DNA of 64,000 nucleotides from Nitrospirota bacterium (GTDB lineage Bacteria; Nitrospirota; 9FT-COMBO-42-15; HDB-SIOI813). The position numbers and the translations under genes are program-made. The stretch spans positions 2,680 through 66,679 of the forward strand of contig JACRGV010000047.1 of NCBI GenBank assembly GCA_016212215.1, in the 5' to 3' direction. The number at the start of each line of letters is the position of its first letter. Position 1 is the stretch's first letter. Positions 21,121 through 54,196 of the stretch are shown piece after piece. The notes beneath the pieces were generated by a model. The model saw only the letters and a program-made list of their open reading frames with translations, had not been told where the DNA came from and made no database searches.

Positions 21121-21253
21121 ATAACAGCCCTCCCTTAATTAATTTTTTTAATTAGTACCAAAATAAAAAATGAAGCCGGAAATTACAGAAACTCCAAGCT
21201 CACCTCCTTCCGCTTATTCTTGCTTCTTATATCTAACTTCTTGCATCTTCCTT

Positions 21254-26823: not shown

Positions 26824-26885
26824 AAGATAGAATTAAGAATTAAGAATTAAGAATTAAGAATTAAGAAGTAAGAAATAAGATAGGG
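26824..26885. repeat. Heptamer tandem array (AATTAAG)x5 followed by AAGTAAG-type units
   Basis: agaattaagaattaagaattaagaattaagaattaagaagtaagaaataag. Confidence 0.9.
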
Positions 26886-30244: not shown

Positions 30245-30355
30245 AGTGGTTAGTGAATAGTGGTTAGTGGTTAGTGGAGTATAAAAAATACGAAGTAATA
30301 GTAAGTTGTTTACAACTAACTAACCACTCGTCACTAACCACTAACCACTAAAAAA
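30245..30355. repeat. Two heptamer arrays in inverted orientation (GGTTAGT x n ... CCACTAA x n) that can form a long hairpin
   Basis: gtggttagtgaatagtggttagtggttagtgg ... ccactcgtcactaaccactaaccact flanking about 45 nt. Confidence 0.7.
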
Positions 30356-32291: not shown

Positions 32292-32474
32292 AATATTAAC
32301 AGACGATTTCTTATAATTTCATTTATTCTATGCAGCATGAAAATATTGTTATCATCGTCATTCAAAAATCCCTCCGGCGGGGTAAGAAAACCCCGCCTAT
32401 CCGGAGATATATCAAGGATAGGTGGGACATTCTTGTCCCACTCATTTTCACCGCCCTTCGTGAGCGATCTACTC

Positions 32475-34103: not shown

Positions 34104-34221
34104 GAAGCAAGAAGTAAGAAGTTAGAAGTAAGAAGTTAGAAGCAAGAAGCAAGAAGTTAGAAGTAAGAAAAAGGGTGCAATCGAATCCTTGCCCCCTTGA
34201 ACCCTTTATTTAGTAAGGAGT

Positions 34222-37479: not shown

Positions 37480-37616
37480 GCCATGGAGAGAAGTAAGAAG
37501 TAAGAAGCAAGAGGCAAGAAGTAAGAAGTAAGAAGTAAGAAGATAGAAGTAAGAAGATAGAAGTAAGAAGTAAGAAGTTAGACATAAGACATAAGACATA
37601 AGACTTTAGAGGCAAG
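37480..37616. repeat. Long heptamer tandem array (AAGTAAG, AAGATAG, ACATAAG variants)
   Basis: agaagtaagaagtaagaagcaagaggcaagaagtaagaagtaagaagtaagaagatagaagtaagaagatagaagtaagaagtaagaagttagacataagacataagacataagac. Confidence 0.9.
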
Positions 37617-37982
37617 ATGGCGATACGGAGTTATAGGGATTTAAATGTATACTCACTTTCATATAGCCTCGCTATGGAGGTATTTCATATAACATTACGT
37701 TTTCCAAAAGAGGAAATGTATTCCTTGAGCAGCCAGATTAGGAACTCCTCAAGGTCGATACCTGCAAATATTGCTGAAGGGTGGGCAAAGCGAATATACG
37801 AGAATATTTTCAAACGGCACCTTGTTGATGCAATAGGCTCAACATGCGAAACTATAGTATGGTTAGATTTTGCATTAGACTGTAAGTATATTGACAACAA
37901 TAATCATTTGAAATTATCTGAAAATTATAAAGAAGTTGGAAAAATGTTAAATGGCCTACTTGAAAACTGGCAAACCTATTAA
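37617..37982 (+). CDS. Four-helix-bundle protein (23S rRNA intervening-sequence protein family)
   Basis: 121 aa. YRDLNVYSLSYSLAMEVFHIT...PANIAEGW matches the family signature (dL.VyQ.a..l...i......P.NIAEG). Confidence 0.7.
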   Translation: MAIRSYRDLNVYSLSYSLAMEVFHITLRFPKEEMYSLSSQIRNSSRSIPANIAEGWAKRIYENIFKRHLVDAIGSTCETIVWLDFALDCKYIDNNNHLKLSENYKEVGKMLNGLLENWQTY

Positions 37983-39033
37983 GTCGAAATCCTTTCTTGC
38001 TTCTATCTTCTTGCGTCTTGTTTCCCGTTTCTTACTTCTTACTTCTTACTTCTTACTTCTTACTTCTATTTTAGCTCCCCGCCCTGCCTACGCTGCCCTT
38101 CAGCCCAGCCTTTCTATTGTAACAGGTTATTATATGCCGAGGCTTGATGAGTTGAACTATATTTTAAAATATAGAGAGGTTGAGCTTGGCCCCCGTAATA
38201 CAGAAGCAAAACCCTCACCATATCCTGTCATATATCAGGGCTATAGCCCTGAAGGTATGCCTAAGATGAGTCCTAAGTCCCCAAAGTTCGGACTCCAATT
38301 TCAGGTTGATATTAATCCCAGGTATTCTGTGTTTATTGGAAATAGTGTTGCTACTTATGATTCCGAGAAAAGAGACGTGAGGTCATTCTTTGTGGGTTTT
38401 TCAATACCTTCTGACCGTGTAACAAGGTTTTCCCTTTCATTGAATCAACTATGGATAGGGGTTAAGAGGAACTGGATATTTGAGGAAAAGGGGAAGCCAG
38501 AAGAAAGAAGCAAGAGGCAAGAAGCAAGAAGTAAGAAGGAAGAAGACGGAAGCAAGAAGCAAGAAGCAAGAAGTCAGAAACAAGAAGAAAGTCAGAAGCA
38601 AGAAGATAGAAGTAAGAAGGCAGAAGAGAAGCCTGCCTCAAAGCTTTATGTGGAGATGGGGGTGCTTGCTGTAACAAGGGCATATCTTACTACAGACGTG
38701 TGGTTGCATGTTTACGCCCCTGAGGAGGGTTTTGATTTCTATAAGGTTACGGAAACTCTGTCACAGGGATACGGATATGCAACCTTCATAGGTATAGGCG
38801 GGGAATACTTCATAAAGAAATGGATGTCATTAGGCTTGGATGCGGATTATACTATAGGCGGTGTCTCAAAGATAAAATATGCCAGGTACTTTACAGTAGA
38901 CCCTCTGGAGAAAGATATTATTAAACCAGGGGATAAGGTTACATATACAGATCTAAAGGTTGGCCGCGTTGCCCCATTGTTTATAAACTTAGAGGGAGTG
39001 GATATAAAGGGGCAGGTAAGGTTTTATTTTTAG
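37951..39033 (+). CDS. Outer-membrane beta-barrel protein with an in-frame repeat insertion. The likely start is the TTG near 37996, giving signal peptide (M)RLVSRFLLLTSYFLLLTSILAPRPAYA.
   Basis: Ends ..GQVRFYF (C-terminal aromatic). The central KPEERSKRQEARSKKEEDGSKKQEARSQKQEESQKQEDRSKK is encoded by heptamer repeats. The signal peptide is encoded by the reverse complement of the same repeat. Confidence 0.5.
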   Translation: MAYLKTGKPIKSKSFLASIFLRLVSRFLLLTSYFLLLTSILAPRPAYAALQPSLSIVTGYYMPRLDELNYILKYREVELGPRNTEAKPSPYPVIYQGYSPEGMPKMSPKSPKFGLQFQVDINPRYSVFIGNSVATYDSEKRDVRSFFVGFSIPSDRVTRFSLSLNQLWIGVKRNWIFEEKGKPEERSKRQEARSKKEEDGSKKQEARSQKQEESQKQEDRSKKAEEKPASKLYVEMGVLAVTRAYLTTDVWLHVYAPEEGFDFYKVTETLSQGYGYATFIGIGGEYFIKKWMSLGLDADYTIGGVSKIKYARYFTVDPLEKDIIKPGDKVTYTDLKVGRVAPLFINLEGVDIKGQVRFYF

Positions 39034-39299
39034 AAGAAAGGTGATTAGGCTGAAGTAAGAAGTAAGAAGTAAGAAGTAAGAAGATAACAACACCAGCCAT
39101 CAGGTTATTCCCGCATATCAGGTTACAGGTTATACACTTCAAATTTTTATATGTAACATTTATGCACACCTAATATAATTATAATAAAAACAATGAGTTA
39201 TGATGGTATTTATGGTTATAGCAGGCTATGTTTGTATAAAAGATATACACTGTTAAAGGTATTAGGTTATAAGTTGATACATATTCACATACTATGTTC

Positions 39300-39410
39300 T
39301 ATTTTCTTGCTTCTTGCTTCTTGCTTCTTGCTTCTCTATATTTTTTCTAACCTCTTGATTTTACAGCTTTGTTTTATTTATTCACTATTCACTATTCACT
39401 ATTCACTGTT
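39300..39410. repeat. Heptamer tandem arrays (TCTTGCT x4; TTCACTA x4)
   Basis: tcttgcttcttgcttcttgcttcttgcttc and ttcactattcactattcactattcactg. Confidence 0.85.
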
Positions 39411-39496
39411 TTATGGCATACCCCTTGCAATATCCTTATTCGTGTACGCTGAATAAAAACAGCGAAACTGACAATGAAAGGAGGTGAAACGTAATA

Positions 39497-40811: not shown

Positions 40812-40841
40812 AAGGCCCTTGGAAACAAGGGCCTTTTTTTT
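40812..40841 (+). terminator. Rho-independent terminator
   Basis: aaggccctt-ggaaac-aagggcctt hairpin followed by TTTTTTTT. Confidence 0.75.
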
Positions 40842-40921
40842 GAGTAAGACAAGGTGAGAAGTAAGAAGTTAGAAGCAAGAAGGAAGAAGCAAGAAAGGAG
40901 GTAGAGACAATGAGATAAACT

Positions 40922-43900
40922 TTGACTGGAAAGGTTATTTCCGATATATTCAACGTCTTTATGATATTCTTAAAAATTAGAAATAGCTTTATTCGTGTTC
41001 TGATTCTTGCCTTTTTTTCTCTTACTTCTTACTTCTTGCTTCTTACTTCTTGCTTCTTATCTCTGTCCGGCAATAACTACGCCTATGCAGAGGAGGCACA
41101 GCCCACTGTCTCTTCTCCGCTTGAAAGGGGCATCCGGCTTCTGAATGAAAAGAAACCTGATGAGGCATTAAAGGCCTTTGAAGAGGCTTCATCCGTAAAT
41201 CCGACGGACCCCTTACCCTTTTACTATTCAGGTGTTGCGTATCATATTAAACGGCAGTTCGCCCCGGCCCTTAATGCATTAAACAAGGCATTAAATCTTC
41301 AGCCTAACATGCCGCCTGCCCTGCTCAGGATAGGTATGCTGTTTGAAGACGTGGGGAGGATTAACAATGCAAGGGAAGTTTATACCGACCTTATTGAAAC
41401 AGGTGTAGAAAATGAGTATGTTAAAGAGGCAAGGGAAAGGCTGAACAGGATTACATCAAAGGAACATTTCAAGAAGGCATCCCAGCTTTTTATCGGAAAA
41501 CAATATGAAGAGGCGCTTAAGGAACTGGATATAGTCTTATCCCTTACGCCTGAAGATGCTGAGGCACTTTTTTCTTCCGGAATGGTCTCTGTATTTTTAA
41601 AAAAACCTAAAGAGGCTGTGTATTTCTTTAAGAAGGCTTTAGAAAATAATCCAAACCATGTTAATGCACGTTTACAACTTGCGATTGTGTATGAGTCTCA
41701 GGGTGACTATGAAAATGCAATAAAGACTTTTAAAGAGCTTATTTCGTTCTCACCTAATTCTACTCAGGCAAAGGAGGCTGAGAAAAGGCTCGCAGAAGAT
41801 GAAAAACGATTTAAGGCCCGCGGCCATTTTGAGGCGACGGCAGAATTGATACGCAAAGAACTCTGGACAGAGGCCCTCGCTGAGGCAAAGAAGGTGTTGG
41901 AGGCAGAGCCTGATAATCCGGATGCACATTTCAATCTTGGTTTAATCCATTATAAACTTAAACAGAATGACCAGGCTATCGAGGCATTAAAACATGCGAT
42001 TGATGCTGACCCAAAACTTCAAAAGGCATACTACCAGCTTGGGGTTGTATATGATGATATGGCGAAATATAAGGAAGCGGTTGAGGAGTATGAAAAGACT
42101 ATTGCTATAGATGAAAAGGCAGAAGAGGCTACTAAGGCAAGGGAGCGTATTGAACTCATTAATTCTGTGAATGTAGAGGAGGAGGTAGCCAACGAGGTTA
42201 AGGAGCTTCTTAAAAACAAAGATGTTGACAGTGCCATAAAAGAGATAGAAGGTTTTTTAATGAGGAAGAAGGGGGATACAAAACTCCTGATGACCCTCGC
42301 TGCTTTATATCAGCGTGCAAATCGTTATCAGGATGTTGCCTCTACCCTGGAAAAACTGTTGAGTTTATCTCCAAAGGATATAAAGGCTCGTTTCTTCCTT
42401 GCAAATACTTATGAATTGATGAGGGAGTATGAAAAGGCATTAGATCAATACCGCATATTGGCAGATCAGGATAAAGAGACACCAAAGGGAAAAAAGGCAG
42501 AGGAGAAGGTGCAGAGATTAACATTACAGGTACATTATGACCGTGGTAAAAAGTATCTTCTATCAGGGAATTATGAGGCATCCCTGATAGAAATGAAGGC
42601 AGTCCTTGATGTTTCTCCTGATGAGCCGCTTGCACTTTTCAATATGGGTGTTCTTTATGACCGTCTAAATAGTCCTGACGAGGCAGTGTCATCTCTAAAA
42701 AAGGCAGTTACCATTGTTCCTGATTATACAATAGCCTACTTTCAACTTGGATTAGTTTATGAAAAGATGAGGAAGTTTGATGAGGCAAGAGATGCATTAC
42801 GTAAAGTCATAGAGATTGACAAAGAGGGTAAAGAGGCAAAGATAGCACAGGATAGGATCAATTCTCTGAAGGAAAACGAGGAATTAACCTTACGCCTAAA
42901 GGAAGCAATAGGTTTTATGGAAAAAAGGGAATGGGATAATGCGAGGAAGTCTATTGAGTCTCTATTAGTCACTCATCCATCCAACTATATGGGATATTAT
43001 TATCTCGGTATTATTCTGAATAGGTCAGGGATTATAGATGAGGCTAAGGCGGCTTTTAAGAAGGTTATCGCTATTAATCCAAAATTTGCGGCGATATATC
43101 TTCAACTTGGGGATATGTTGATGCAGGAGGGCGAATATGAAGAGGCAAGAAACAACTATGAGCAGGCGATCCTAATTAATAAAGATTCTCCGGAGGCGGC
43201 AACAGCCGGGGAACGACTTAAAAATCTGAAGGCATGGTGGGGTAGTTTTTCTATGAGTCACAGCTACAATTCAAACATAGCCTTCCGCTCTAAGGCACAG
43301 TCAAGTGCAAACTCCAATTATAACCTTGGGTTGAGCTATACAATGCTTCGCCGAAAAAATTGGAATATATCTACTGTACTATCCGGTAGTGAAGCCATTT
43401 ATTATGAAAGCCAATTTAAGGGGAATTCATACTCCGCTGCCTTAAACGGAACCCGTAATTTTCTGGATAAATATACCTTATCAGGCTCCGGAACATATAG
43501 CGCATCCTTTTTTGAAGGGAAACCGACTGTTGTCTCGACTCATTTCTCTGGAAATGCAGGGACAAATCCGGGAGGAATACCATCGTCAGCTACCCTTGCA
43601 TATTCTTTTTCCAACACAAGGTCTTTTGTAAATAAATTAAGTAATGCAAACCAACATAATCTGAATCTGTCACTCTCACAAAAAATGTCTGCACGGGATT
43701 CATTAACCGGTAGTTATGGATTCAGCATATATCAAAATCTTGATCCCATAGGCAGTAATTATGCAAACAGGACGCATGCTGTTTCTTTAAGTTACGGCCA
43801 CCACTTTTTTTCTTTTTTAAACCTGAGCCTCAGCTACTCAAGAAGCTTTATAAACTACAGTAACCCGGATTCAACAACACTTTTTCAGAGATACCGCAGT

Positions 43901-44131
43901 AATGTAAGTGAGGGAATGAATGGGGGGCTTAGCGTCTCTTTTTCAGAAGATGTTTCATTGTCTTTCAGCTATACTTTTTCCTATGCAATAAATCGTACAA
44001 ACCTTGCGCCGTTAACGGCGGAAGAACAGCAACAACTGAAGGACCTCCTGTCTACCCCACTTCCAACAGTCGGCGGCGGGGGAGGATATACTGCACACAA
44101 TGCAGGTTTATCATTAAGCGTTCGCTTTTAG
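40922..44131 (+). CDS. Outer-membrane protein with a periplasmic TPR-repeat domain and a C-terminal beta-barrel (PgaA/BcsC-like architecture)
   Basis: At least 14 TPR units across residues 60-780. The C-terminal roughly 290 aa is Ser/Tyr/Asn-rich with alternating strands and ends ..LSLSVRF. The signal peptide FFSLTSYFLLLTSCFLSLSGNNYAYA is encoded by reverse-complement heptamer repeats. Confidence 0.65.
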   Translation: MTGKVISDIFNVFMIFLKIRNSFIRVLILAFFSLTSYFLLLTSCFLSLSGNNYAYAEEAQPTVSSPLERGIRLLNEKKPDEALKAFEEASSVNPTDPLPFYYSGVAYHIKRQFAPALNALNKALNLQPNMPPALLRIGMLFEDVGRINNAREVYTDLIETGVENEYVKEARERLNRITSKEHFKKASQLFIGKQYEEALKELDIVLSLTPEDAEALFSSGMVSVFLKKPKEAVYFFKKALENNPNHVNARLQLAIVYESQGDYENAIKTFKELISFSPNSTQAKEAEKRLAEDEKRFKARGHFEATAELIRKELWTEALAEAKKVLEAEPDNPDAHFNLGLIHYKLKQNDQAIEALKHAIDADPKLQKAYYQLGVVYDDMAKYKEAVEEYEKTIAIDEKAEEATKARERIELINSVNVEEEVANEVKELLKNKDVDSAIKEIEGFLMRKKGDTKLLMTLAALYQRANRYQDVASTLEKLLSLSPKDIKARFFLANTYELMREYEKALDQYRILADQDKETPKGKKAEEKVQRLTLQVHYDRGKKYLLSGNYEASLIEMKAVLDVSPDEPLALFNMGVLYDRLNSPDEAVSSLKKAVTIVPDYTIAYFQLGLVYEKMRKFDEARDALRKVIEIDKEGKEAKIAQDRINSLKENEELTLRLKEAIGFMEKREWDNARKSIESLLVTHPSNYMGYYYLGIILNRSGIIDEAKAAFKKVIAINPKFAAIYLQLGDMLMQEGEYEEARNNYEQAILINKDSPEAATAGERLKNLKAWWGSFSMSHSYNSNIAFRSKAQSSANSNYNLGLSYTMLRRKNWNISTVLSGSEAIYYESQFKGNSYSAALNGTRNFLDKYTLSGSGTYSASFFEGKPTVVSTHFSGNAGTNPGGIPSSATLAYSFSNTRSFVNKLSNANQHNLNLSLSQKMSARDSLTGSYGFSIYQNLDPIGSNYANRTHAVSLSYGHHFFSFLNLSLSYSRSFINYSNPDSTTLFQRYRSNVSEGMNGGLSVSFSEDVSLSFSYTFSYAINRTNLAPLTAEEQQQLKDLLSTPLPTVGGGGGYTAHNAGLSLSVRF

Positions 44132-44855: not shown

Positions 44856-47117
44856 TTGCAAGAATGCAATAACAAAGTGAGTAGAAATAAATTACCTAAT
44901 ACCTTATCACATCCATATATAGCCTTTATCCTTTTTGCATCAATTGGTACCTTGATATATTTGAATTCCCTTAATAATCCATTTCAATTTGATGATTTTA
45001 ATGTAGTAGTTAATAATTTCAAGATACAAGAAATAAAGAATATACCCTACTTTTTTATTAATCCAAGATTCGGAGCCAACAATCCAATGGCCGCCGGACA
45101 CTACAGGCCTATTTTATTTACAAGTTATGCAATCAATTATGCTATAGGCGGGTTGAATACCCTTGGCTATCATATAGTTAATCTGGCTTTTCACATTGGG
45201 ACAGCGTTTTTAGTTTTCCTCATAGTGAAGGGAATGTTGGAAGACAGTAAGCAGGTAGCAGTAAGCAGTGAGCAGATAGCAGAAAACAAACAGAAGTTAG
45301 AAGCAAGAAGTCAGACGACAGCAGACATCCAGCGGGACAAGAATGTCCCGCCTATAGATAGTCGGGGTTTTCTAACGCCTACGTTTGTAGATAGTCGGGG
45401 TTTTCTAACCCCGATGTTTGTTGCCTCAGTGGCTTCTGGTCTTATTTTCCTTGTCCATCCATTTAATTCAGAGGCTGTAAATTATATAACAGCCCGTTCG
45501 AGTATAATGAGCGGGTTCTTCTATTTGTTGGGGTTTTATTGCTGGGTGCTTTTTAGAAGTCAGAAGAAAGAAGCAAGAAGCAAGAAGTTAGAAGCAAGAA
45601 GTAAGATTTCAGAAGAAAGAAGTCAGAAACAAGAAGTTAGAAGTCAACAGGCAGAAGAAAGAAGTAAGAAGGCAGAAGTAAGAAGTAAGATAGGGGAAGA
45701 CCGGCAAGGTTTTTCTAACTTCTTACCTCTTACCTCTTACTTCTATCTTTTTTCCCTCCTCGCCTTTATCGCCGGTATGTTAAGTAAAGAAGTGGTGATA
45801 ACTTTGCCGGTAATGTTGTGGTTGTATGATTTGTATGGGTTTAGCAGAAGCAAGAAGTTAGAAGCAAGAAGTAAGAATCAAGAAGATAACACAGTAATAA
45901 ATAAGTATGCAGTATTTGATTTGCGTACCTATATCCCCTATCTCCCTTTTGTTCTTCTTGTAGCGATACCGTATCTGCTAGTACGTCTCTTTTCACTCGG
46001 CAGGGTGCTTGATAAGTTTCAGAGGGGTTTTATTACACAACTGTTCACAGAGTTGCCTGTTCTTGTGAGACATTGGCAGATGTTTTTTATCCCAAAGGGC
46101 TTTAGCCTGGTTCACGATGTGGATGTATTCCATGGCATGACATGGTTGTTTATGGTTTCAGTTGTAATATTGATATTATATCTGTGTGGTATTGTGTATC
46201 TATTTTTGTATGGAAAAGGCCGTTGGCGTATTATATCTTTTTTTATGCTGTGGTTTTTTATTGTACTGCTTCCAACAACAATTATTCCACTTAATGCAAT
46301 CTTTCAGGAAAACCGGGGTTACATGGCCTTGTTAAGTTTTGCAGTACCGGCAGGGATTGCAATTGAGACTTTGTTTAATTATAAAAAAAGTGTAGTATTG
46401 AAGGTTATCGTGCTGTTATTATTATTGGCGGTTTATGGAAGTATTACGATGCAGAGAAACATTGTATGGGGGGATGATATTAAGTTATGGAAGGACGCAT
46501 TAGAGAAGTCTCCGCAATCCGGGATTTCCTTTGCAGGATTATCTCTTGCCTATAAGAACAGTGGTGATACATTTCTCTCAATTGAAACTGCGAAAAAGGG
46601 AATTTCTGTAGAACCTGATAGCTATTATCTCCATATGCTTATAGGAGCAGATTTTCAGGCACTTGGTCAAATGGATGAGGCCGCTAAAGAATATGAAAAT
46701 GCGCTTAATATAGATGCAGGTTTCGGTAATGTATGGAATGACCTTGCAGTTTTGTATATAGAAAAAAACAACCTTGAACGTGCGGAGCAGTGCTTAAAAA
46801 ATGGGATAAAGGTTTGGAAGGATTTGCCTCCTCTTTACTATAATCTGGGCAGGATAGATATAATGCGCGGAGATTTTGTTAATGCTATTAGCCACTATGA
46901 AACAGCAGTAAAATTGTATCCGGATTACCTTACTGTGAGGTATGACATGGGAGAGGCTTATGAAAAACTTAATAAGATAGATCAGGCAAAGGAACAGTAC
47001 AGAGAGATTATTAAATATAAAACAATTAATCTTAAAAATTTGAATTACAGGTATGGGTTAGATGAAAAAATAGCAGGGGAAATTATAGCAAAGGCGGAGC
47101 AGAAGTTTAATCAGTAA
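44856..47117 (+). CDS. GT-C-fold glycosyltransferase (PMT_2/DUF1736, TMTC-like) with C-terminal TPR repeats; paralog 1 of 4
   Basis: About 11 TM helices. First-loop NPFQFDDFNVV acidic motif and HYRPIL motif. C-terminal TPR units. In-frame heptamer and REP insertions. Confidence 0.7.
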   Translation: MQECNNKVSRNKLPNTLSHPYIAFILFASIGTLIYLNSLNNPFQFDDFNVVVNNFKIQEIKNIPYFFINPRFGANNPMAAGHYRPILFTSYAINYAIGGLNTLGYHIVNLAFHIGTAFLVFLIVKGMLEDSKQVAVSSEQIAENKQKLEARSQTTADIQRDKNVPPIDSRGFLTPTFVDSRGFLTPMFVASVASGLIFLVHPFNSEAVNYITARSSIMSGFFYLLGFYCWVLFRSQKKEARSKKLEARSKISEERSQKQEVRSQQAEERSKKAEVRSKIGEDRQGFSNFLPLTSYFYLFSLLAFIAGMLSKEVVITLPVMLWLYDLYGFSRSKKLEARSKNQEDNTVINKYAVFDLRTYIPYLPFVLLVAIPYLLVRLFSLGRVLDKFQRGFITQLFTELPVLVRHWQMFFIPKGFSLVHDVDVFHGMTWLFMVSVVILILYLCGIVYLFLYGKGRWRIISFFMLWFFIVLLPTTIIPLNAIFQENRGYMALLSFAVPAGIAIETLFNYKKSVVLKVIVLLLLLAVYGSITMQRNIVWGDDIKLWKDALEKSPQSGISFAGLSLAYKNSGDTFLSIETAKKGISVEPDSYYLHMLIGADFQALGQMDEAAKEYENALNIDAGFGNVWNDLAVLYIEKNNLERAEQCLKNGIKVWKDLPPLYYNLGRIDIMRGDFVNAISHYETAVKLYPDYLTVRYDMGEAYEKLNKIDQAKEQYREIIKYKTINLKNLNYRYGLDEKIAGEIIAKAEQKFNQ

Positions 47118-47127
47118 GTTTTAATGT

Positions 47128-49353
47128 ATGAAAGAAGATATGTTCGGGTTCAGAAAAGGGTGTCACCGGTATCTCATAGTCTTTTGTATCTTTTTATTTG
47201 CAGGTCTGCTCATCTATTGGAATTGCTTAAGTAATCCTTTCCAGTATGATGATGACGGCGTGGTTGTTAAGAATACTAATATTAAAGATGTTAAAAATAT
47301 CCCGCTTTTTTTTATAAACCCAAGACTGTCTGAAAGTAATCCTCTGTATGCAGGACATTACAGACCTATTGTTTATGCAAGTTATGCGGTTAATTATGCT
47401 ATCGGGGGATTAAACCCATTCGGGTATCATGTTGTTAATCTGGCGATTCATATTGGTTCTGCGTTTTTGATATTTCTTATAATGAAGGCAATGTTAGAAG
47501 ACAGGAAGCAGTCAGCAGTAAGCAGTGAGCAGATAGCAGAAAACAAACAGAAGTTAGAAGCAAGAAGTCAGACGACAGCAGACATCCAGCGGGACAAGAA
47601 TGTCCCGCCTATAGATAGTCGGGGTTTTCTAACGCCTACGTTTGTAGATAGCCGGGGTTTTCTAACCCCGATGTTTGTTGCCTCAGTGGCTTCTGGTCTT
47701 ATCTTCCTTGTCCATCCATTTAATTCTGAGGCTGTAAATTATATAACAGCCCGTTCGAGTATAATGAGCGGGTTCTTCTATTTGCTGGGGTTTTATTGCT
47801 GGGTGCTTTTTAGAAGTCAGAAGCAAGAAGTAAGAAGTAAGATAGGAGAAGACCATCGTGGTTCTTCTAATTATTTAAATCTAACTTCTAACTTCTTACC
47901 TCTTGCATCTTACCCCTTACCTCTTACCTCTTACTTCTATCTTTTTTCCCTCCTCGCCTTTATCGCCGGTATGTTAAGTAAAGAAGTGGTGATAACTTTG
48001 CCGGTAATGTTGTGGCTGTATGATTTGTATGGGTTTAAGTCAGTAAGCAGTAAACAGTTAGCAGTAAGCAGTAAACAGACAGAAGGAAGTAACACACAAT
48101 GCCCCTCCGAATCTGCTCACCGCTCACTGCTTACTGCTGACTATCTTTTAAACTGGCGTAACTATGTTCTATATCTCCCTTTTGTTCTTCTTGTAGCAAT
48201 ACCGTATCTGCTTATGCGTCTCTTTTCCCTTGGGAAGGTGCTGGACAAGTTTCAAAGGGACATAGTAACTCAAATACTTACTGAGGTACCGGTTTTATTT
48301 AAACACTGGCAGATGTTTTTTATCCCAAAGGGTTTTAGTCTGGTACATGATGTGGACATTTTTCATGGTATGACGTTGTTGTTGATGGTTTCAATCGTAT
48401 TATTTATTTTGTACTTGGTAATTACTCTATATCTTTTTTTGTCCGGTAGTAGATACCTGCGGGTTGTATCTTTCAGTATGATGTGGTTCTTAATTGTACT
48501 CCTTCCAACAACGATTATGCCTTTAAATGCGATCTTTCAGGAAAACCGGGGATACCTTGCAGTTGTATCATTCTCTTTATTAATCGGGGTTGTACTAATG
48601 GAACTCGGTAAGAGGGTCAACAGGACAACAGTTATAAGCATTACTGTTATTTTGTTTATTATCTACGGAGTAATTACAGTCAAAAGGAATTTTGTATGGG
48701 GAGACAGTATCAGGCTTTGGAAGGATGCGGTAGAGATTGCGCCAGGTTCCGGAATAGCATACGCCGGTTTATCTGCAGTATATAGAGAGAGGGGAGACAT
48801 GTTTCTTTCAATTGAAACAGCAAAAAGGGGGCTTAATGCGGAACCGGACAATTACTATTTACACCTTAATCTCGGGCGTGACTACTTTCTTTCAGGAGAT
48901 GTTGACAAGTCCATACAGGAATATGAAAATGCTTTAAGAATTGATCCTAATGATGCGGTTTCAATGAATGAGCTTGCAACACTTTACGTTAAAAAAGGAG
49001 ATATTGAACAAACTGAGATATTCTTGAAGAAGGCAGTCCGGAAATGGTATAGTCTGCCCCCTCTTCACTACAATTTGGGCGTGGTGCTTGTAGGACGTGG
49101 AAAATTATCAGAGGCCGTGACGGAGTTTCAGGAGGCTATTGCCATTTATCCGGCATATCTTCGTGCAAGGTATGAATTAGGTGAAGTCTATGAAAAAACC
49201 GGCAGGTTAGACATGGCAAGAGAACAGTACAATGAAATTATCAGGTATGGCTCACCTGATACCGCTACTGTAGAACTGTTGTATGACCAGGATAAAAGAA
49301 TCGTGGATCGGATTGTAAGTATGGCCAGGCAAAAACTCGGGAATAAACAATGA
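47128..49353 (+). CDS. GT-C-fold glycosyltransferase (TMTC-like) with C-terminal TPR repeats; paralog 2
   Basis: Same architecture as paralog 1 (NPFQYDDDGVVV, HYRPIV). A block of about 330 nt is near-identical to paralog 1. Confidence 0.7.
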   Translation: MKEDMFGFRKGCHRYLIVFCIFLFAGLLIYWNCLSNPFQYDDDGVVVKNTNIKDVKNIPLFFINPRLSESNPLYAGHYRPIVYASYAVNYAIGGLNPFGYHVVNLAIHIGSAFLIFLIMKAMLEDRKQSAVSSEQIAENKQKLEARSQTTADIQRDKNVPPIDSRGFLTPTFVDSRGFLTPMFVASVASGLIFLVHPFNSEAVNYITARSSIMSGFFYLLGFYCWVLFRSQKQEVRSKIGEDHRGSSNYLNLTSNFLPLASYPLPLTSYFYLFSLLAFIAGMLSKEVVITLPVMLWLYDLYGFKSVSSKQLAVSSKQTEGSNTQCPSESAHRSLLTADYLLNWRNYVLYLPFVLLVAIPYLLMRLFSLGKVLDKFQRDIVTQILTEVPVLFKHWQMFFIPKGFSLVHDVDIFHGMTLLLMVSIVLFILYLVITLYLFLSGSRYLRVVSFSMMWFLIVLLPTTIMPLNAIFQENRGYLAVVSFSLLIGVVLMELGKRVNRTTVISITVILFIIYGVITVKRNFVWGDSIRLWKDAVEIAPGSGIAYAGLSAVYRERGDMFLSIETAKRGLNAEPDNYYLHLNLGRDYFLSGDVDKSIQEYENALRIDPNDAVSMNELATLYVKKGDIEQTEIFLKKAVRKWYSLPPLHYNLGVVLVGRGKLSEAVTEFQEAIAIYPAYLRARYELGEVYEKTGRLDMAREQYNEIIRYGSPDTATVELLYDQDKRIVDRIVSMARQKLGNKQ

Positions 49354-49886: not shown

Positions 49887-51947
49887 ATGAAAGATTGGTT
49901 GGATAAGCGATATGTAATTTTTATTATCTTCTTGCTCATAGGGATTCTGACGTATTGGAATAGCTTTGGTAATAGTTTTCATTATGATGATGAAATGGTC
50001 ATTGTTTATAATAGGAATGTCACCTCTCTAAAAAATATCCCGTATTTCTTTATAAATCCTAAGATGATGTTTTCGGATCTGATGCCGGGTGGGCATTATC
50101 GTCCTCTTGTGCTTACTTCTTATGCTGTCAGCTATGCGTTCACTCAATTAAATCCTGTAGCCTATCATCTATTCAACTTTTTCTTCCACGTGGGGTCGGC
50201 GTTTTTGATATTTCTTATAGTGAAGGCTATGTTAGGCAGCATTCAGCAGTCAGATGACGCCCATCGGGACAAGAATGTCCCGCCTATAGATAGCCGGGTT
50301 TTTCTAACGCCTACGTTTGTAGATAGCCGGGGTTTTCTAACCCCGATGTTTGTTGCCTCAATGGCTTCCGGTCTGATTTTTCTTGTCCATCCGTTTAACT
50401 CAGAGGCTGTGAACTATGTTACTGCCCTCTCCAGCGTAATGAGCGGGTTCTTTTACCTTCTGGCATTTTATTGCTGGGTGCTTTTTAGAAGTCAGAAGCA
50501 AGAAGTAAGAAGTAAGATAGGGGAAGACCGGCAAGGTTTTTCTAACTTCTTACCTCTTGCTTCTTGCTTCTATATAGCTTCCCTCCTCGCCTTTATCGCA
50601 GGTATGTTAAGCAAAGAGGTAGTGATTACACTTATAGTCGTGTTATGGCTGTATGATATGTATGGGTTTAGGTCAGTAAGCAGTAAGCAGTCAGCAGTTA
50701 GCAATGAACAGTTAGCTGATAAAACTGCTTACCGCTCACCGCTTACTGCTGACTATCTTTTAAACTGGCGAACTTATATCCCATATATTCCTTTTGTCCT
50801 TCTCGTAGCGGTGCCTTATTTATTAATAAGATTATTTTCACTTGGGAAGGTGCTTGACCATTTTCAGAGGGATATATGGACTCAGTTGTTTACAGAGCTT
50901 CCGGTTCTGGTCAAACACTGGCAGATGTTTTTTATACCTGTTGACCTCACTCCCCTTCATTTAGTGGAAATATACAGGACTTATTGGTCTTTCCCTGTAT
51001 TATTATCCACGGTCATTATCACAGCATATTTAATTATCGCATTTATTCTTTCACGGGTTCAGAGGCGGACTTTACGCATTATCTCCTTTTTTATGTTCTG
51101 GTTTTTTATAGTTCTCTTACCCACAACTATAATCCCTTTAAATGATATTTTTCAGGAAAACCGCGGTTACCTTGCAATGGTAAGTTTTGCAGTCCTCGCC
51201 GGTGTAGTAATAGGCGAGTTGGGGAGGATAAAGATTAAATGGGTTTCAATGGCAGTTCTGGTCGGTTTAATTATTTTTTACGCCGGCTGTACAGTACAAA
51301 GGAATAAGGTTTGGAAAAGTGAGATGGCCCTCTGGACCGATGCATTGAAGAAGTCTCCAAGGTCTCCGGCAGTTTACACAGCATTAGCTGTTGAATACAA
51401 AAGGGCAAGAAAGTTTAACATGGCTATAGATGCATCAAATAAGGCTATTTTACTGGGGGGCAATGATAATTTCTTTATCCATGACAATCTTGGGAGAATC
51501 TATTCTATGCAGGAAAAGTATGACCTTGCTATAAAGGAGTTTGAACAGGCAGTAAAACTGTATCCCTATAAATCGGATACTCATAATGAATTAGGTCATG
51601 CCTATTTTATAATGGGCAAAATAGAGTTAGCGGAAAAGGAGCTTAAGGAGGCTATTAAGTACGATCCAAAATTCTCCAGACCTTATTATAATCTAGGGAT
51701 CTTGAGCAGGCGGGGTGGAAAATCTTCTGAGGCTATAAATTATTTTAAGACTGTAATTTCATTAAATCCGGCACATTCGAAATCGTGGTTTAATTTAGGG
51801 TCATTGATGGAAGAAATGGGCAACAAGGATGAGGCATTAAGATATTACAACAGGGCAGTTCAGGTAACTGCAAAGGATGAACAAGACGTAGCCCAGGAGG
51901 CACGTGAGGCTATTGACAGGCTTGAGAAGATGAGGGCAGCAAGATAA
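49887..51947 (+). CDS. GT-C-fold glycosyltransferase (TMTC-like) with C-terminal TPR repeats; paralog 3
   Basis: NSFHYDDEMVIV, HYRPLV; TM domain followed by TPR repeats. The same REP-derived RDKNVPPIDSR..FLTP loop is present. Confidence 0.7.
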   Translation: MKDWLDKRYVIFIIFLLIGILTYWNSFGNSFHYDDEMVIVYNRNVTSLKNIPYFFINPKMMFSDLMPGGHYRPLVLTSYAVSYAFTQLNPVAYHLFNFFFHVGSAFLIFLIVKAMLGSIQQSDDAHRDKNVPPIDSRVFLTPTFVDSRGFLTPMFVASMASGLIFLVHPFNSEAVNYVTALSSVMSGFFYLLAFYCWVLFRSQKQEVRSKIGEDRQGFSNFLPLASCFYIASLLAFIAGMLSKEVVITLIVVLWLYDMYGFRSVSSKQSAVSNEQLADKTAYRSPLTADYLLNWRTYIPYIPFVLLVAVPYLLIRLFSLGKVLDHFQRDIWTQLFTELPVLVKHWQMFFIPVDLTPLHLVEIYRTYWSFPVLLSTVIITAYLIIAFILSRVQRRTLRIISFFMFWFFIVLLPTTIIPLNDIFQENRGYLAMVSFAVLAGVVIGELGRIKIKWVSMAVLVGLIIFYAGCTVQRNKVWKSEMALWTDALKKSPRSPAVYTALAVEYKRARKFNMAIDASNKAILLGGNDNFFIHDNLGRIYSMQEKYDLAIKEFEQAVKLYPYKSDTHNELGHAYFIMGKIELAEKELKEAIKYDPKFSRPYYNLGILSRRGGKSSEAINYFKTVISLNPAHSKSWFNLGSLMEEMGNKDEALRYYNRAVQVTAKDEQDVAQEAREAIDRLEKMRAAR

Positions 51948-52069: not shown

Positions 52070-54196
52070 ATGAATACAAAGGGTTCATGGTTCTCAACTA
52101 TAATTTGCAGTAAGACATTAGTCCTTTGTTTGTTCGTTCTTCTTGGTACAGCGGCATATCTTAATAGCCTGCATAATATGTTTCAGTATGATGATTATTT
52201 TTACGTCACCTACAACAAGAGCATAAGGTCATTAAATAATCTGCCTCAGTTTTTTACAAATCCAAGATTACTTATTTCAGACCATCAGGCAGGTCATTAC
52301 CGGCCGCTTGTATTGTTGAGCTATGCTATTAATTATGCCCTTGGCGGCCTTGATACCTTTGGTTATCATCTGACAAATCTCATCTTTCATATAGGTACAG
52401 CATTTTTGCTATTTCTTATAGTGAAGACCATGTTGGAAGGCATGGGGCTTGGGGCAGAAGTCAGAAGCAAGAAGTTAGAAGCAAGAAGTCGGACGTCAGC
52501 AGATATCCAGCGGGACAAGAATGTCCCTCCTATAGATAGTCGGGGTTTTCTAACCCCGATGTTTGTTGCCTCCGTGGCTTCTGGTCTTATTTTCCTTGTT
52601 CATCCTTTCAATTCCGAGGCTGTAAACTATATTACAGCAAGGTCAAGCGTAATGAGCGGATTCTTTTATCTGCTGGGATTTTACTGTTGGGTGAAGTTTA
52701 GAAGTCAGAAGTCAGAAGTTAGAAGCCAACAGACAGAAGAAAGAAGCAAGAAGTTAGAAGCAAGAAGTAAGATAGGAGAAGACCTGCGAGGTTCTTCTAA
52801 CTTCTTACCTCTTACTTCTTACTTCTATATTGCTTCCTTCCTTGCCTTTCTCGCAGGTATGTTGAGCAAAGAGGTTGTGATTACACTGCCAATCGTGTTC
52901 TGGTTGTATGATATTTATTGGCCCAATAGAAGCAAGAAGCAAGAAGTAAGAAGTCAGATGCAAGAAGATAAGACAGATAACAATACTGCTCACCGCTCAC
53001 CTCTTAATGCGGGGTATATATTAAACTGGCGGACATACATACCGTATCTCCCCTTTATCCTTATAGTAGTAATCCCATATTTTTTAATGCGGTTTTTTTC
53101 ACTTGGAGGGGTCCTGACGCCATTCAAGAGAGATGTAATGACACAGTTGTATACTGAACTGCCTGTACTTGTAAAACACTGGAGACTTTTTCTTTTCCCA
53201 ACCGGGCTTACATTCGGCGACGTTATAGGAGTCCGAAATAATCTCTGGTCATTCGAAATAGTCCTCTCTGCATGTTTCGTCATTGTATACCTTATATTGG
53301 CTGTATATCTTTTTCTTCGTAATGAATTATTTGCAAGAATATCTTCATTTTTCATGTTCTGGTTTCTGATTGTAATTATACCTACCACTATTATTCCCTT
53401 AAACGTGATTTTTCAGGAAAACCGGGGGTATCTTGCTATAGTGAGTTTTGCTGTTCTGACAGGGATAGTGATCAGCACCTTTTTAAACAAACTATCCGCT
53501 AAGCCGGCATTTGTAATATTGATAATACTGATTGGGGTTTACTTTGGAGGGACGGTTGCACGGAATCGGGTATGGAATAGTGAGGTAGGGTTATGGAAAG
53601 ATACCATTGATAAGTATCCTGAATCGTCAAAACTCTACATAGCCTTAGGGGTTGCTTACACAAGGGCTAATATGTATAATGATGCACTTGATGCATTAAA
53701 TAAGGCTTTTGATTTAGGCGGGGGTAAAGACCCTGCTCTCCATGAAGCACTTGGAAAAATATATATTGTTCAGAAAAAATGGGACCTTGCAGCAATAGAA
53801 TATGAGAAAATGATTCAGGTACGTCCGGATTATTCCGGGTTTCGTAATGACTTAGGTGCAATATACTTTAACATCGGGAAATTAGACCTTGCAGAGGTGC
53901 AATATAAAAGGGCACAACAGCTTGACCATCTTGACTACCTGCCTCATTTTAACCTGGGAGTTTTATACACAGAGAAGGGGATGCTGAAAGAGGCAGTAAA
54001 GGAATATAATATATCAATCGCTTTATATCCTGATTATGTGAAGGCCAGATTTAATCTTGCAGAATTATTAGAAGAACTTGGAGATAAGGCAGGGGCACGG
54101 GAATATTACAGTTATATAGTAAAACAAAAAGGGAGTGAAGATAGAGAACTAACACATGAGGCAGGGCTAAGACTGGCTAACCTCATGAAATTATAA
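52070..54196 (+). CDS. GT-C-fold glycosyltransferase (TMTC-like) with C-terminal TPR repeats; paralog 4
   Basis: NMFQYDDYFYV, HYRPLV; TM domain followed by TPR repeats, with in-frame heptamer insertions. Confidence 0.7.
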   Translation: MNTKGSWFSTIICSKTLVLCLFVLLGTAAYLNSLHNMFQYDDYFYVTYNKSIRSLNNLPQFFTNPRLLISDHQAGHYRPLVLLSYAINYALGGLDTFGYHLTNLIFHIGTAFLLFLIVKTMLEGMGLGAEVRSKKLEARSRTSADIQRDKNVPPIDSRGFLTPMFVASVASGLIFLVHPFNSEAVNYITARSSVMSGFFYLLGFYCWVKFRSQKSEVRSQQTEERSKKLEARSKIGEDLRGSSNFLPLTSYFYIASFLAFLAGMLSKEVVITLPIVFWLYDIYWPNRSKKQEVRSQMQEDKTDNNTAHRSPLNAGYILNWRTYIPYLPFILIVVIPYFLMRFFSLGGVLTPFKRDVMTQLYTELPVLVKHWRLFLFPTGLTFGDVIGVRNNLWSFEIVLSACFVIVYLILAVYLFLRNELFARISSFFMFWFLIVIIPTTIIPLNVIFQENRGYLAIVSFAVLTGIVISTFLNKLSAKPAFVILIILIGVYFGGTVARNRVWNSEVGLWKDTIDKYPESSKLYIALGVAYTRANMYNDALDALNKAFDLGGGKDPALHEALGKIYIVQKKWDLAAIEYEKMIQVRPDYSGFRNDLGAIYFNIGKLDLAEVQYKRAQQLDHLDYLPHFNLGVLYTEKGMLKEAVKEYNISIALYPDYVKARFNLAELLEELGDKAGAREYYSYIVKQKGSEDRELTHEAGLRLANLMKL

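What the first reader, a model, noticed from the sequence alone, without database searches (positions are those of the whole stretch)
37951..38100. Signal peptides and N-terminal hydrophobic segments are encoded by the reverse complement of the heptamer repeats
Read on the opposite strand, the AAGTAAG/AAGCAAG arrays encode LLTSYFLLLTSCF-type hydrophobic stretches.

In the OMP gene at 37951..39033 the stretch (M)RLVSRFLLLTSYFLLLTSILAPRPAYA|A forms a textbook signal peptide (TTG start near 37996). In the TPR-barrel gene at 40922..44131 the signal peptide MIFLKIRNSFIRVLILAFFSLTSYFLLLTSCFLSLSGNNYAYA|EE (nt 40990..41075) comes from the same repeat.

This suggests the repeat has been co-opted as a ready-made secretion signal. 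One strand gives charged low-complexity linkers and the other gives signal peptides. I am not aware of this dual use of a single repeat family having been described.
Basis: partly seen in the sequence, partly recalled or inferred. Interest (0 to 1): 0.62.

Follow-up and report, generated by a model that had tools for sequence, protein, structure and literature searches.

The report
Heptamer repeats translated as signal peptides
In this groundwater Nitrospirae genome a 7-base tandem repeat is really translated on both strands, giving charged loops on one strand and the hydrophobic core of export signals on the other. It looks like tolerated repeat expansion in sites that were already hydrophobic, not a spreading ready-made secretion module.

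Summary
A perfect (TTCTTAC)x5.6 array at 38029-38067 and a degenerate one at 41011-41065 lie inside the 5' coding regions of an outer-membrane beta-barrel gene and a TPR-plus-barrel gene. They encode LLLTSYF-type hydrophobic cores followed by AYA|A and AYA|E cleavage motifs.

Translation is well supported:
- 26 orthologue N-termini keep a conserved start (M-A-Y-L-K-T-G-K).
- It is followed by heptamer-derived cores of 13 different lengths, all in frame with the conserved site PAHA|AIQWSLS.
- No start codon exists between the array and the cleavage site.
- The mature protein models as an OmpA/OmpW-like barrel.

The OMP start is ATG 37951 or TTG 37960, which overlaps the 3' end of an upstream 23S-rRNA-IVP gene; it is not a TTG near 37996. 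Only 2 of about 12 signal peptides in the window use arrays. Array-free orthologues have ordinary signal peptides with the same cleavage site. Pure arrays sampled from metagenomes are almost all intergenic.

So the repeat expands where its peptide is tolerated, and it now serves as the hydrophobic core there. It is not a general secretion cassette. Closest known: the Neisseria opa CTCTT leader-peptide repeats and the reverse TAACTGA heptamers in Beggiatoaceae ORFs. I rate it a new variant of a known kind, of moderate interest.

The parts
37951..38094 (+). Signal-peptide coding region of the outer-membrane barrel gene (48 aa). The n-region is MAYLKTGKPIKSKSFLASIFLRLVSR, the hydrophobic core is FLLLTSYFLLLTSILA, and the c-region is PRPAYA, cleaved before A49.
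   Evidence: Reading frame and orthologue alignment. The AF2 model shows an N-terminal helix at residues 12-41.
38029..38067 (+). Perfect (TTCTTAC)x5.6 array, the reverse complement of AGAAGTA. It encodes the hydrophobic core. A degenerate extension runs from 37994 to 38073.
   Evidence: TRF 100% matches; inverted-repeat arms 37994-38090.
37617..37982 (+). 23S_rRNA_IVP (four-helix-bundle) gene. Its last 32 nt overlap the OMP start in another frame.
   Evidence: Pfam PF05635, E = 2.5e-31. The same arrangement is present in L001 and L003. Remnants are kept in L127, L130 and L131.
37484..37590 (+). Intergenic sense-orientation array (AGAAGTA x13). It is the left arm of an inverted repeat whose right arm is the signal-peptide array.
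   Evidence: pair I1 (97 nt, 76% complementary, 424 nt apart).
38095..39033 (+). Mature outer-membrane beta-barrel protein, ending ...VRFYF.
   Evidence: AF2 mean pLDDT 85 with barrel strands. Foldseek hits to OmpA, OmpW, OprG and OmpT/Pla.
38493..38629 (+). Sense-orientation array inside the same gene, translated as the charged loop KPEERSKRQEARSKKEEDGSKKQEARSQKQEESQKQEDRSKKAEE.
   Evidence: The region has low pLDDT (about 50) in the model and is of variable length in orthologues.
40961..41089 (+). Signal-peptide coding region of the TPR-plus-barrel gene (43 aa): MIFLKIRNSFIRVLILAFFSLTSYFLLLTSCFLSLSGNNYAYA, cleaved before EE.
41011..41065 (+). Antisense heptamer array (TCTTACT/TCTTGCT) that encodes the hydrophobic core of the TPR signal peptide.
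40849..40897 (+). Intergenic sense array upstream of the TPR gene, complementary to the signal-peptide array.
   Evidence: pair I22. RNA fold of 40840-41075: -83.8 kcal/mol, z = -6.8.
41090..44131 (+). Mature TPR domain plus C-terminal barrel, ending ...LSLSVRF.
   Evidence: Pfam TPR families including TPR_Slam. Orthologues P0065-P0075.
45552..45752 (+). Paralogue 1. Sense arrays (charged loop) are followed 16 nt later by an antisense array 45710-45752 (FSNFLPLTSYFYLF), which abuts a conserved membrane helix.
47809..47946 (+). Paralogue 2. The same sense/antisense pair, with the antisense arm expanded by 14 aa (42 nt, 6 units).
50484..50572 (+). Paralogue 3. The same sense/antisense pair.
   Evidence: hairpin -48.3 kcal/mol, z = -7.3.
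52697..52832 (+). Paralogue 4. The same sense/antisense pair.
39302..39337 (+). Antisense-orientation array (TTCTTGC x4.6) in the intergenic region upstream of gene 39497. It is probably not coding, so it is a counter-example to 'antisense copies equal signal peptides'.
   Evidence: The same position in L001 also carries antisense arrays.

Best explanation
AGAAGYA is a slippage-prone heptanucleotide repeat family that is dispersed through this Nitrospirae genome, mostly with its purine-rich strand on the coding strand. Seven is not a multiple of three, so a translated array is read in all three phases in turn and yields a 7-residue periodic peptide.

On the purine strand the peptide is charged (EVRSKKQ-type). 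It stays open only if no more than one unit in three carries T. On the pyrimidine strand the peptide is hydrophobic (LLLTSYF-type) and open in every frame.

Selection then acts as a filter. Arrays persist inside genes only where the peptide is tolerated and only when length changes keep the frame. Sense arrays sit in surface loops. Antisense arrays sit in segments that were already hydrophobic: the cores of Sec signal peptides (the OMP and the TPR-barrel protein) and the loop-side end of a membrane helix (the four paralogues).

In the two genes of the finding, the array-encoded stretch is now the working hydrophobic core of a signal-peptidase-I type signal peptide. In the OMP the positively charged n-region and the start codon come from the overlapped 3' end of an upstream IVP gene.

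Shown: that the repeat exists, that it is translated (by frame conservation), that it sits in a signal-peptide context, and that homologues behave as described.
Inferred: that the segment functions in export, and that the origin is tolerance of expansion rather than adaptive recruitment.
For: 1. Frame conservation. 26 orthologue N-termini (22 distinct) begin with the LKTG-type start. They reach the conserved site PAHA|AIQWSLS through heptamer-derived cores of 13 different lengths (29-74 aa). At DNA level the start is in frame in the window, L001, L003, L127, L130 and L131, although the array regions range from about 40 nt (L130) to about 140 nt (L003).

2. No alternative start. There is no ATG, GTG or TTG in frame between array and cleavage site, and the other two frames are closed or lack starts. 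The first downstream ATG (38134) lies inside barrel strand 1.

3. The mature protein needs export. The AF2 model has pLDDT 85 and shows a beta-barrel. Foldseek matches OmpA, OmpW and OprG with probability about 1.0. The protein ends in Phe.

4. The TPR gene behaves the same way. Orthologues P0065, P0066, P0067, P0069 and P0073 carry heptamer-type cores. P0068, P0071 and P0074 carry ordinary ones. All end in A-x-A before E or Q.

5. Selection signature. In-gene sense arrays have 32% T-units and none is closed in all three frames (0 of 21). Intergenic arrays have 67% T-units and 8 of 11 are closed in all frames. Length differences between paralogues and close orthologues are multiples of 21 nt: 14, 21, 28 and 35 aa.

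6. Pre-existing hydrophobic sites. Array-free orthologues have ordinary signal peptides at the same place. Array-free homologues of the paralogues have a short loop and then the same helix ...FYxxSLLAFxxGMLSKE.
Against: - No signal-peptide predictor and no experimental N-terminus were available, so cleavage and export are inferred.
- Some orthologues (L003/P0063, 77 aa; L001, 49 aa) would have unusually long N-terminal regions with polar residues inside the repeat. Only the last 18-20 residues may act as the core.
- The frame-conservation count partly depends on gene callers choosing in-frame starts, and the sequences are phylogenetically related.
- Whether the arrays expanded in situ from T-rich codons or arrived by insertion (for example with the IVP gene and its inverted flanks) is not resolved.
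- No Shine-Dalgarno sequence is seen before either start.
Confidence: 0.8

Rival explanations
1. Phase-variable contingency switch of the Neisseria opa type. Slipped-strand gain or loss of single heptamer units inside the leader-peptide coding region would put the start codon in or out of frame, switching surface proteins on and off.
For: - The OMP array is a perfect uninterrupted 5.6-unit tract in the 5' coding region of a surface protein.
- The other two frames have no usable start, so a change of one unit would silence the gene.
- opa genes use exactly this layout, with CTCTT repeats (PMC3960869; bioRxiv 10.1101/2020.09.16.300947).
Against: - All 6 array-bearing DNA loci examined (window, L001, L003, L127, L130, L131) are in frame, and no OFF allele was found. 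P0013, which was annotated as truncated, is in fact ON with a TTG start.
- Arrays in orthologues and in the TPR gene are interrupted by point changes, which suppresses slippage.
- The same repeat sits in transporters, membrane enzymes and intergenic DNA throughout the window.
- MAG consensus sequences could hide minority alleles.
Confidence: 0.1
2. The arrays matter as nucleic-acid structure, not as peptide. Each antisense array would be the right arm of an inverted repeat with an upstream sense array, forming long RNA or DNA hairpins. These could act as IVS-like processing stems around the IVP gene or as translational control, or could be footprints of template-switch duplication. Coding would be incidental.
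For: - Every antisense array in the window has a sense array 16-430 nt upstream.
- Predicted hairpins: 40840-41075 at -83.8 kcal/mol, z = -6.8; paralogue pairs at -37 to -52 kcal/mol, z = -3.8 to -8.7, also in L003.
- 97-nt inverted arms flank the IVP gene.
Against: - In L001 the TPR signal-peptide array and the intergenic antisense arrays have no upstream sense arm. L130 keeps the OMP array without the IVP gene or a left arm.
- A conserved -35/-10-like site lies between the two arms of the TPR pair, so the arms may not share a transcript.
- Sense arrays are so common after stop codons that proximity is partly expected.
- Structure does not explain the strict frame conservation.
Confidence: 0.07
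3. The array is 5' untranslated or promoter DNA, the ORF runs through it only because the pyrimidine strand has no stop codons, and translation starts downstream.
For: - Antisense arrays are open in all frames, so ORF extension through them is mechanical.
- A non-coding antisense array exists at 39302-39337.
- Annotators placed starts inside or after the array for P0004, P0013 and P0053.
Against: - There is no in-frame start between the array and the conserved cleavage motif.
- A downstream start would delete the signal peptide and the first strand of a beta-barrel OMP.
- The conserved start stays in frame across 13 leader lengths.
- The misannotated cases all have in-frame leaders at DNA level.
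Confidence: 0.03

Closest known systems
Neisseria opa genes: CTCTT pentameric 'coding repeats' in the leader-peptide region (PMC3960869; bioRxiv 10.1101/2020.09.16.300947)
   Same: A pyrimidine-rich short tandem repeat whose unit is not a multiple of three lies inside the signal-peptide coding region of an outer-membrane beta-barrel protein and is translated as part of the leader. Only some copy numbers keep the start in frame.
   Different: - The unit is 7 nt rather than 5 nt.
- No ON/OFF polymorphism was found here.
- The repeat is not confined to one gene family but is spread genome-wide.
- It is also translated on its other strand as charged loops.
- The organism is an environmental groundwater Nitrospirae, not a host-adapted pathogen.
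TAACTGA heptamer direct repeats of Beggiatoaceae and cyanobacteria (MacGregor 2015, PMC4679880)
   Same: - A genome-wide heptanucleotide repeat family with an orientation bias.
- The forward orientation gives stops in all three frames.
- 'Reverse' copies can be translated (LSVISYQ repeats) and are found at the periphery of a few ORFs. One is at the very start of a permease.
   Different: - Those repeats are overwhelmingly intergenic and are proposed to be regulatory.
- No forward-strand translation, no signal-peptide role and no orthologue-level frame conservation was reported.
- Here about 70% of the arrays in the window lie inside ORFs.
Cyanobacterial STRR heptamers and heptameric simple sequence repeats in general (reviewed in PMC4692102)
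   Same: Abundant 7-nt tandem arrays, several unit types per genome, and strand- and position-biased placement near gene ends.
   Different: [quoted passage not shown] Translation into functional protein segments is not described.
Sense-antisense hydropathic complementarity of the genetic code
   Same: It explains why one strand of a purine-rich repeat encodes polar or charged residues while the complement, with T at the middle codon positions, encodes hydrophobic ones.
   Different: That is a general property of the code. Here it is realised by a single repeat family, sometimes on both arms of one palindrome inside one ORF.

Membership tests
Sec-type (signal peptidase I) signal peptide | N-terminal position, directly after a usable start codon, with no alternative start downstream | tested here: met
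   ATG 37951 or TTG 37960, and ATG 40961. There is no in-frame start between the array and the cleavage motif.
Sec-type (signal peptidase I) signal peptide | Positively charged n-region | tested here: met
   OMP: K5, K8, K11, K13, R22, R26. TPR: K5, R7, R12 (read from the sequence).
Sec-type (signal peptidase I) signal peptide | Uninterrupted hydrophobic core | tested here: met
   OMP F27-A42, 16 aa, Kyte-Doolittle mean about 2.1. TPR V13-L35, 23 aa, which is long for a Sec leader. plus hand calculation. The AF2 model shows a helix at residues 12-41.
Sec-type (signal peptidase I) signal peptide | c-region with small residues at -3 and -1, conserved in homologues | tested here: met
   A-Y-A|A in the window. 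A-H-A|A-I-Q-W-S-L-S is conserved across 54 orthologue N-termini. The TPR family has A-Y-A|E, A-F-A|Q and similar.
Sec-type (signal peptidase I) signal peptide | The mature protein is an exported protein | tested here: met
   The AF2 barrel matches OmpA, OmpW and OmpT folds. Both proteins end in an aromatic beta-signal (...VRFYF...LSVRF).
Sec-type (signal peptidase I) signal peptide | Demonstrated cleavage or export, or a trained predictor score (SignalP) | not testable with these tools
   No predictor and no proteomic data were available.
Phase-variable coding-repeat locus (opa type) | Repeat with a unit not divisible by 3 in the 5' coding region, where a change of one unit breaks the frame | tested here: met
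Phase-variable coding-repeat locus (opa type) | Copy-number polymorphism that gives both in-frame and out-of-frame alleles among close relatives | tested here: not met
   0 OFF alleles among the 6 array-bearing DNA loci. 13 leader lengths are all in frame. Caveat: these are consensus assemblies.
Phase-variable coding-repeat locus (opa type) | Repeat confined to contingency or surface genes | tested here: not met
   Arrays are present in the MMPL transporter, an ABC protein, membrane TPR proteins and 12 intergenic sites.
Dispersed heptanucleotide repeat families (STRR, TAACTGA) | Tandem 7-nt units dispersed across the genome, several unit types, orientation bias | tested here: met
   138 TRF rows, most of them period 7, 14 or 21. 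11 of 12 intergenic arrays are co-oriented with the neighbouring genes.
Dispersed heptanucleotide repeat families (STRR, TAACTGA) | Predominantly intergenic location | tested here: not met
   31 of 43 arrays in the window overlap ORFs and are read in frame.
Hairpin / inverted-repeat element (REP-, MITE- or IVS-like) | Complementary arms that are conserved as a pair at orthologous loci | tested here: inconclusive
   The pairs are strong in the window and in L003. The left arm is missing in L001 and L130.

The most novel reading that the evidence does not exclude
Heptamer arrays, especially the palindromic sense/antisense pairs, would act as evolvable 'hydropathy cassettes'. One insertion or expansion would supply a charged loop from one arm and a membrane-active segment from the other. 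After upstream DNA is disrupted (for example by insertion and later loss of the IVP gene), such arrays would repeatedly rebuild working signal peptides from repeat DNA plus whatever start codon the remnant offers. This would be a lineage-specific route to the de novo birth and repair of export signals and membrane segments.
Probability: 0.15. Interest if true: 0.7.

Novelty: new variant of a known kind. Interest (0 to 1): 0.45.

Why it matters
It is a clean natural example of non-triplet microsatellite DNA being kept as protein-coding sequence on both strands, with opposite physico-chemical outcomes. One outcome, the hydrophobic core of a signal peptide, is functionally constrained across many orthologues.

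It shows how little sequence information a Sec signal core needs. It also shows how repeat dynamics, the structure of the genetic code and selection for reading frame together shape where low-complexity segments can live in proteins.

There is a practical consequence. Gene callers mis-set starts at such loci: P0004, P0013 and P0053 were annotated without their leaders. As a result, exported proteins in these Nitrospirae MAGs are probably under-predicted.

Tried and rejected
- **Profile search with the repeat peptide (37 aa, window 37489-37599 minus strand) against 1.84 billion representatives.** It gave 48 hits. Nearly all are short spurious ORFs over long arrays from unrelated organisms, so it was useless as a test of N-terminal enrichment.
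- **Metagenome scan for the pure 21-mer.** It returned 120 loci and 128 arrays, mostly from unrelated, often high-GC organisms. The 30 'long downstream ORF' cases are mostly antisense shadows with no start codon. Only L047 (paralogue helix) and L082 (lipoprotein leader FAIFTSYFLLLTLISGC) are convincing, and L014 is doubtful. Only 7 loci are array-rich, so no clade-wide enrichment statistic could be made.
- **Genome-contig scan with the OMP alignment.** It gave only 6 loci.
- **Search for further IVP genes in the window and loci.** There is one per locus, so no general 'IVP cassette carries arrays' rule could be tested.
- **Rfam and tRNA scans of the window.** Nothing was found.
- **Promoter and terminator scan.** Counts were at chance level. 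Only the site at 40922-40950 is of interest, because it is conserved in L001.
- **Literature searches for the peptide motifs, and for heptamer repeats in Nitrospirota.** No description was found.
- **Hypothesis considered and rejected: the antisense array creates an extra membrane helix in the paralogues.** Homologues show that the helix pre-exists and that the array only lengthens its loop-side end.
Full report
**Source and setting.**
The window comes from a groundwater Nitrospirae MAG: the OMP is 100% identical to NCBI protein HZA08_04410 on a 78.8-kb contig. It is saturated with period-7 tandem repeats of several unit types. The family in the finding is AGAAGTA/AGAAGCA. The 14-mer CTTACTTCTTACTT, allowing one mismatch, occurs 57 times against 0.03 expected.

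With a looser detector (21-mers, up to 4 mismatches) I found 43 arrays:
- 12 are intergenic. In 11 of these the purine-rich strand lies on the coding strand of the neighbouring genes.
- 21-24 are inside ORFs in the same sense.
- 7 are inside ORFs in the opposite sense.

Gene orientation and GC skew both flip at about 22.4-22.9 kb, and the repeat orientation flips with them.

**Checking the observation.**
The array at 38029-38067 is (TTCTTAC)x5.6 with 100% matches. The array at 41020-41059 is (TCTTACT)x5.7 with 87% matches. In the frames of the long ORFs they read FLLLTSYFLLLTS and FFSLTSYFLLLTSCFLSL.

The coordinates are not:
- The TTG at 37997 is out of frame.
- The in-frame TTG that gives (M)RLVSRF is at 38011 and has no purine-rich stretch before it.
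- The TPR leader begins at ATG 40961, not at the ORF's first TTG at 40922.

**Is the array translated?**

(i) Start conservation in the OMP family.
- A homology search found 63 relatives of the OMP, all from Nitrospirae-type assemblies.
- 54 of them reach the conserved start of the mature protein, and all 54 have the motif P-A-H-A|A-I-Q-W-S-L-S there.
- 26 of them (22 distinct sequences) begin M-[AV]-[YS]-[LM]-K-T-G-[KR]. They continue through a heptamer-derived core (LLLTSYF, FLTSNFL, LLASCFL and so on).
- The length from start to cleavage site takes 13 different values between 29 and 74 residues, always in frame.

(ii) DNA-level check.
- The start is in frame in the window, L001, L003, L127, L130 and L131. 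The array regions range from about 40 nt (L130) to about 140 nt (L003).
- Three proteins that annotators had started inside or after the array (P0004, P0013, P0053) all have intact in-frame leaders.

(iii) No alternative start.
- There is no ATG, GTG or TTG in frame between the array and the cleavage motif in either gene.
- The other two frames are closed or lack starts.
- The next ATG in the OMP (38134) lies inside the first barrel strand.

(iv) The mature protein needs export.
- The AlphaFold model (mean pLDDT 85) shows an N-terminal helix at residues 12-41, followed by long antiparallel strands.
- Foldseek matches it to OmpA, OmpW, OprG and OmpT/Pla.
- Both proteins end in an aromatic residue typical of barrel proteins.

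(v) The TPR family shows the same picture. P0065, P0066, P0067, P0069 and P0073 have heptamer-type cores. P0068, P0071 and P0074 have ordinary ones. All are followed by A-x-A and then E or Q.

**The 'other strand' half.**
Sense arrays inside genes translate to K/E/R/S/Q-rich stretches with Kyte-Doolittle means of -0.5 to -3.1. Antisense arrays give +0.5 to +2.7.

The unit composition carries a selection signature:

| Array class | Share of AGAAGTA (T) units | Closed in all three frames on the purine strand |
|---|---|---|
| In-gene sense | 32% (one-third is the most an open frame allows) | 0 of 21 |
| Intergenic | 67% | 8 of 11 |
| In-gene antisense | 67% | 6 of 7, but the gene's own frame on the pyrimidine strand is open in all 7 |

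Length differences between the four paralogues, and between close orthologues, are 14, 21, 28 and 35 residues. These are multiples of three units.

**Is it a co-opted, ready-made secretion signal?**
Only in a weak sense.
- Array-free orthologues of the OMP (L002, L004, L005, L128, P0055, P0062) carry ordinary, unrelated signal peptides with the same cleavage site. The family was therefore already exported, and the repeat occupies a pre-existing core.
- A neighbour-joining tree of the mature regions scatters the array-type leaders over most of the family. The deepest branches have plain leaders. This suggests an old acquisition followed by repeated loss or replacement (midpoint rooting, so tentative).
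- About 12 proteins in the window have obvious signal peptides, and only these two use the array.
- An antisense array also sits in non-coding DNA at 39302-39337.
- A scan of public metagenomes for the pure 21-mer gave 128 arrays. Almost all are intergenic or lie in spurious ORFs. The two clearly real coding cases were one more member of the paralogue family (L047) and one lipoprotein leader (L082...FAIFTSYFLLLTLISGC|VQ). L014 is doubtful.
- The profile search with the repeat peptide was equally uninformative.

**The internal antisense arrays.**
In the four tandem paralogues (44856-54196) an antisense array follows a sense array by 16-24 nt. It is read as FSNFLPLTSYFY, directly before a conserved helix (...SLLAFIAGMLSKEVVITLP).

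In 120 homologues the segment between ...FYCWVRFR and ...FYxxSLLAF is a hypervariable loop. In some it is only about 5 residues long. In others it is filled by heptamer arrays or by other repeat elements. The array therefore lengthens the loop-side end of an existing helix and does not add a new one.

All three independent antisense coding sites coincide with segments that are hydrophobic in array-free relatives. This is what a tolerance filter predicts.

**Where the OMP start comes from.**
The n-region and the start codon overlap, in another frame, the last 32 nt of an upstream 23S_rRNA_IVP gene (PF05635). The order MMPL - array - IVP - OMP is shared with L001 and L003.

In L127, L130 and L131 the IVP gene is gone, but different remnants of its 3' end remain. 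They supply a TTG or ATG start, in one case in the former IVP frame, still joined in frame to the array. Other orthologues have n-regions read from a palindromic element (GCAGGCTGAAGCCTGC, read as RRLKPAAT).

The 5' end of this gene is thus a hotspot where leaders have been re-assembled from repeat DNA. This observation keeps a more adventurous 'repair or birth of signal peptides' reading alive at low probability.

**Rivals.**
(a) opa-like phase variation.
- The layout matches (PMC3960869; bioRxiv 10.1101/2020.09.16.300947), and a one-unit slip would silence the gene.
- Against it: no OFF allele was seen, most arrays are interrupted, and the repeat is everywhere.

(b) Hairpin function.
- Every antisense array in the window has an upstream sense partner.
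- The predicted stems are strong (-37 to -84 kcal/mol, z = -3.8 to -8.7).
- Against it: the left arms are missing in L001 and L130. A -35/-10-like site conserved with L001 lies between the TPR arms.

(c) Untranslated leader. This is contradicted by all of the translation evidence above.

**Comparison with what is known.**
- The nearest precedents are the opa CTCTT coding repeats and the reverse-orientation TAACTGA heptamers. The latter are translated as LSVISYQ at the ends of a few Beggiatoaceae ORFs (PMC4679880).
- Heptamer repeats are otherwise described as mainly intergenic (PMC4692102).
- The opposite hydropathy of the two strands is a known property of the genetic code (my own knowledge, not looked up).
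- I found no paper that describes translated heptamer arrays in Nitrospirota or these peptide motifs.

**Verdict.**
The feature is real and the core reading is correct. The 'ready-made secretion module' framing is too strong. It is best filed as a new variant of known repeat-in-leader and translated-microsatellite phenomena, of moderate interest (0.45).

Noticed in passing
window 34222-37479: The MMPL/RND-type transporter gene carries many in-frame repeat insertions. They include heptamer arrays, (AGGCTGA)n arrays read as GGRLKAE, a 39-nt tandem at 35156-35255, and several 'PSPLTGEGKGGGG' segments from a G/C-rich element that looks palindromic by eye (not tested). The protein is 1085 aa, against 902 aa (L130) and 964 aa (L001) in relatives.
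   Followed up: partly
window 37473-38090; L127 330-400; L130 9980-10030; L131 1205-1240: The 23S_rRNA_IVP gene is flanked by inverted heptamer arrays of about 97 nt. This layout is reminiscent of rRNA intervening sequences with processing stems. Where the gene has been lost, different remnants of its 3' end still provide the OMP start codon.
   Followed up: partly
window 40895-40963; L001 7195-7265: Upstream of the TPR gene there is a strong Shine-Dalgarno sequence (AAAGGAGG) followed by a 2-codon mini-ORF (ATG AGA TAA; ATG CGA TAG in L001). Next comes a conserved TTGACT-17-TATATT promoter-like site that ends 10 nt before ATG 40961, and that ATG has no Shine-Dalgarno sequence. This suggests a near-leaderless mRNA or re-initiation.
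   Followed up: partly
window 45355-45421, 47612-47678, 50287-50353: A 33-nt direct repeat (x2) that contains its own small hairpin (CCGGGGTTTTCTAACCCCG). It is translated in frame as IDSRGFLTPTFVDSRGFLTPMFV in three of the four paralogues. The fourth has a single copy.
   Followed up: no
window 44856-54196: Four tandem paralogues encode membrane-domain plus TPR proteins, and a fifth (P0265) lies on the same contig outside the window. They share stretches of identical sequence, which suggests gene conversion. The membrane domain has no Pfam match.
   Followed up: partly
window 62526-62660: A third signal-peptide region holds tandem repeats of other types. (ATCAAAT)x3.9 is read as KIKYQISDIK in the n-region, and T-rich 7/13-mers are read as FLILHFIFAFLFLIFNF in the core, before SAHA|W.
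   Followed up: partly
window 30245-30349, 47494-48151 and others: Other heptamer families (AGTGAAT, CAGTAAG, AGTGGTT, ACTAACC, CTGCTCA, AGGCTGA) are present, and some form inverted pairs, for example AGTGGTT/ACTAACC 17 nt apart. One OMP orthologue (P0015) has a leader that appears to derive from the reverse strand of the CAGTAAG family (LTAYCLLLTAHCLLL).
   Followed up: no
window 21217-21268, 26822-26883, 34099-34174: Sense arrays begin at or overlap the stop codons of genes 21254-21919(-), 26056-26823 and 32337-34103. The repeat itself therefore supplies or directly abuts the TAA stop. 11 of 12 intergenic arrays are co-oriented with the flanking genes.
   Followed up: partly
window 39193-39456; L001 5322-5801: The region between the OMP and the next gene carries antisense TTCTTGC and TATTCAC arrays inside an 87-aa hydrophobic ORF with no Shine-Dalgarno sequence. 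The position is conserved in L001. It is unclear whether this is a small membrane protein or non-coding DNA.
   Followed up: no
L005 9890-9960; P0003, P0011, P0014, P0019: In several OMP orthologues the region just before the hydrophobic core reads RRLKPAAT. This is encoded by a perfect palindrome (GCAGGCTGAAGCCTGC) of another dispersed element, so a different repeat contributes the positively charged n-region there.
   Followed up: no
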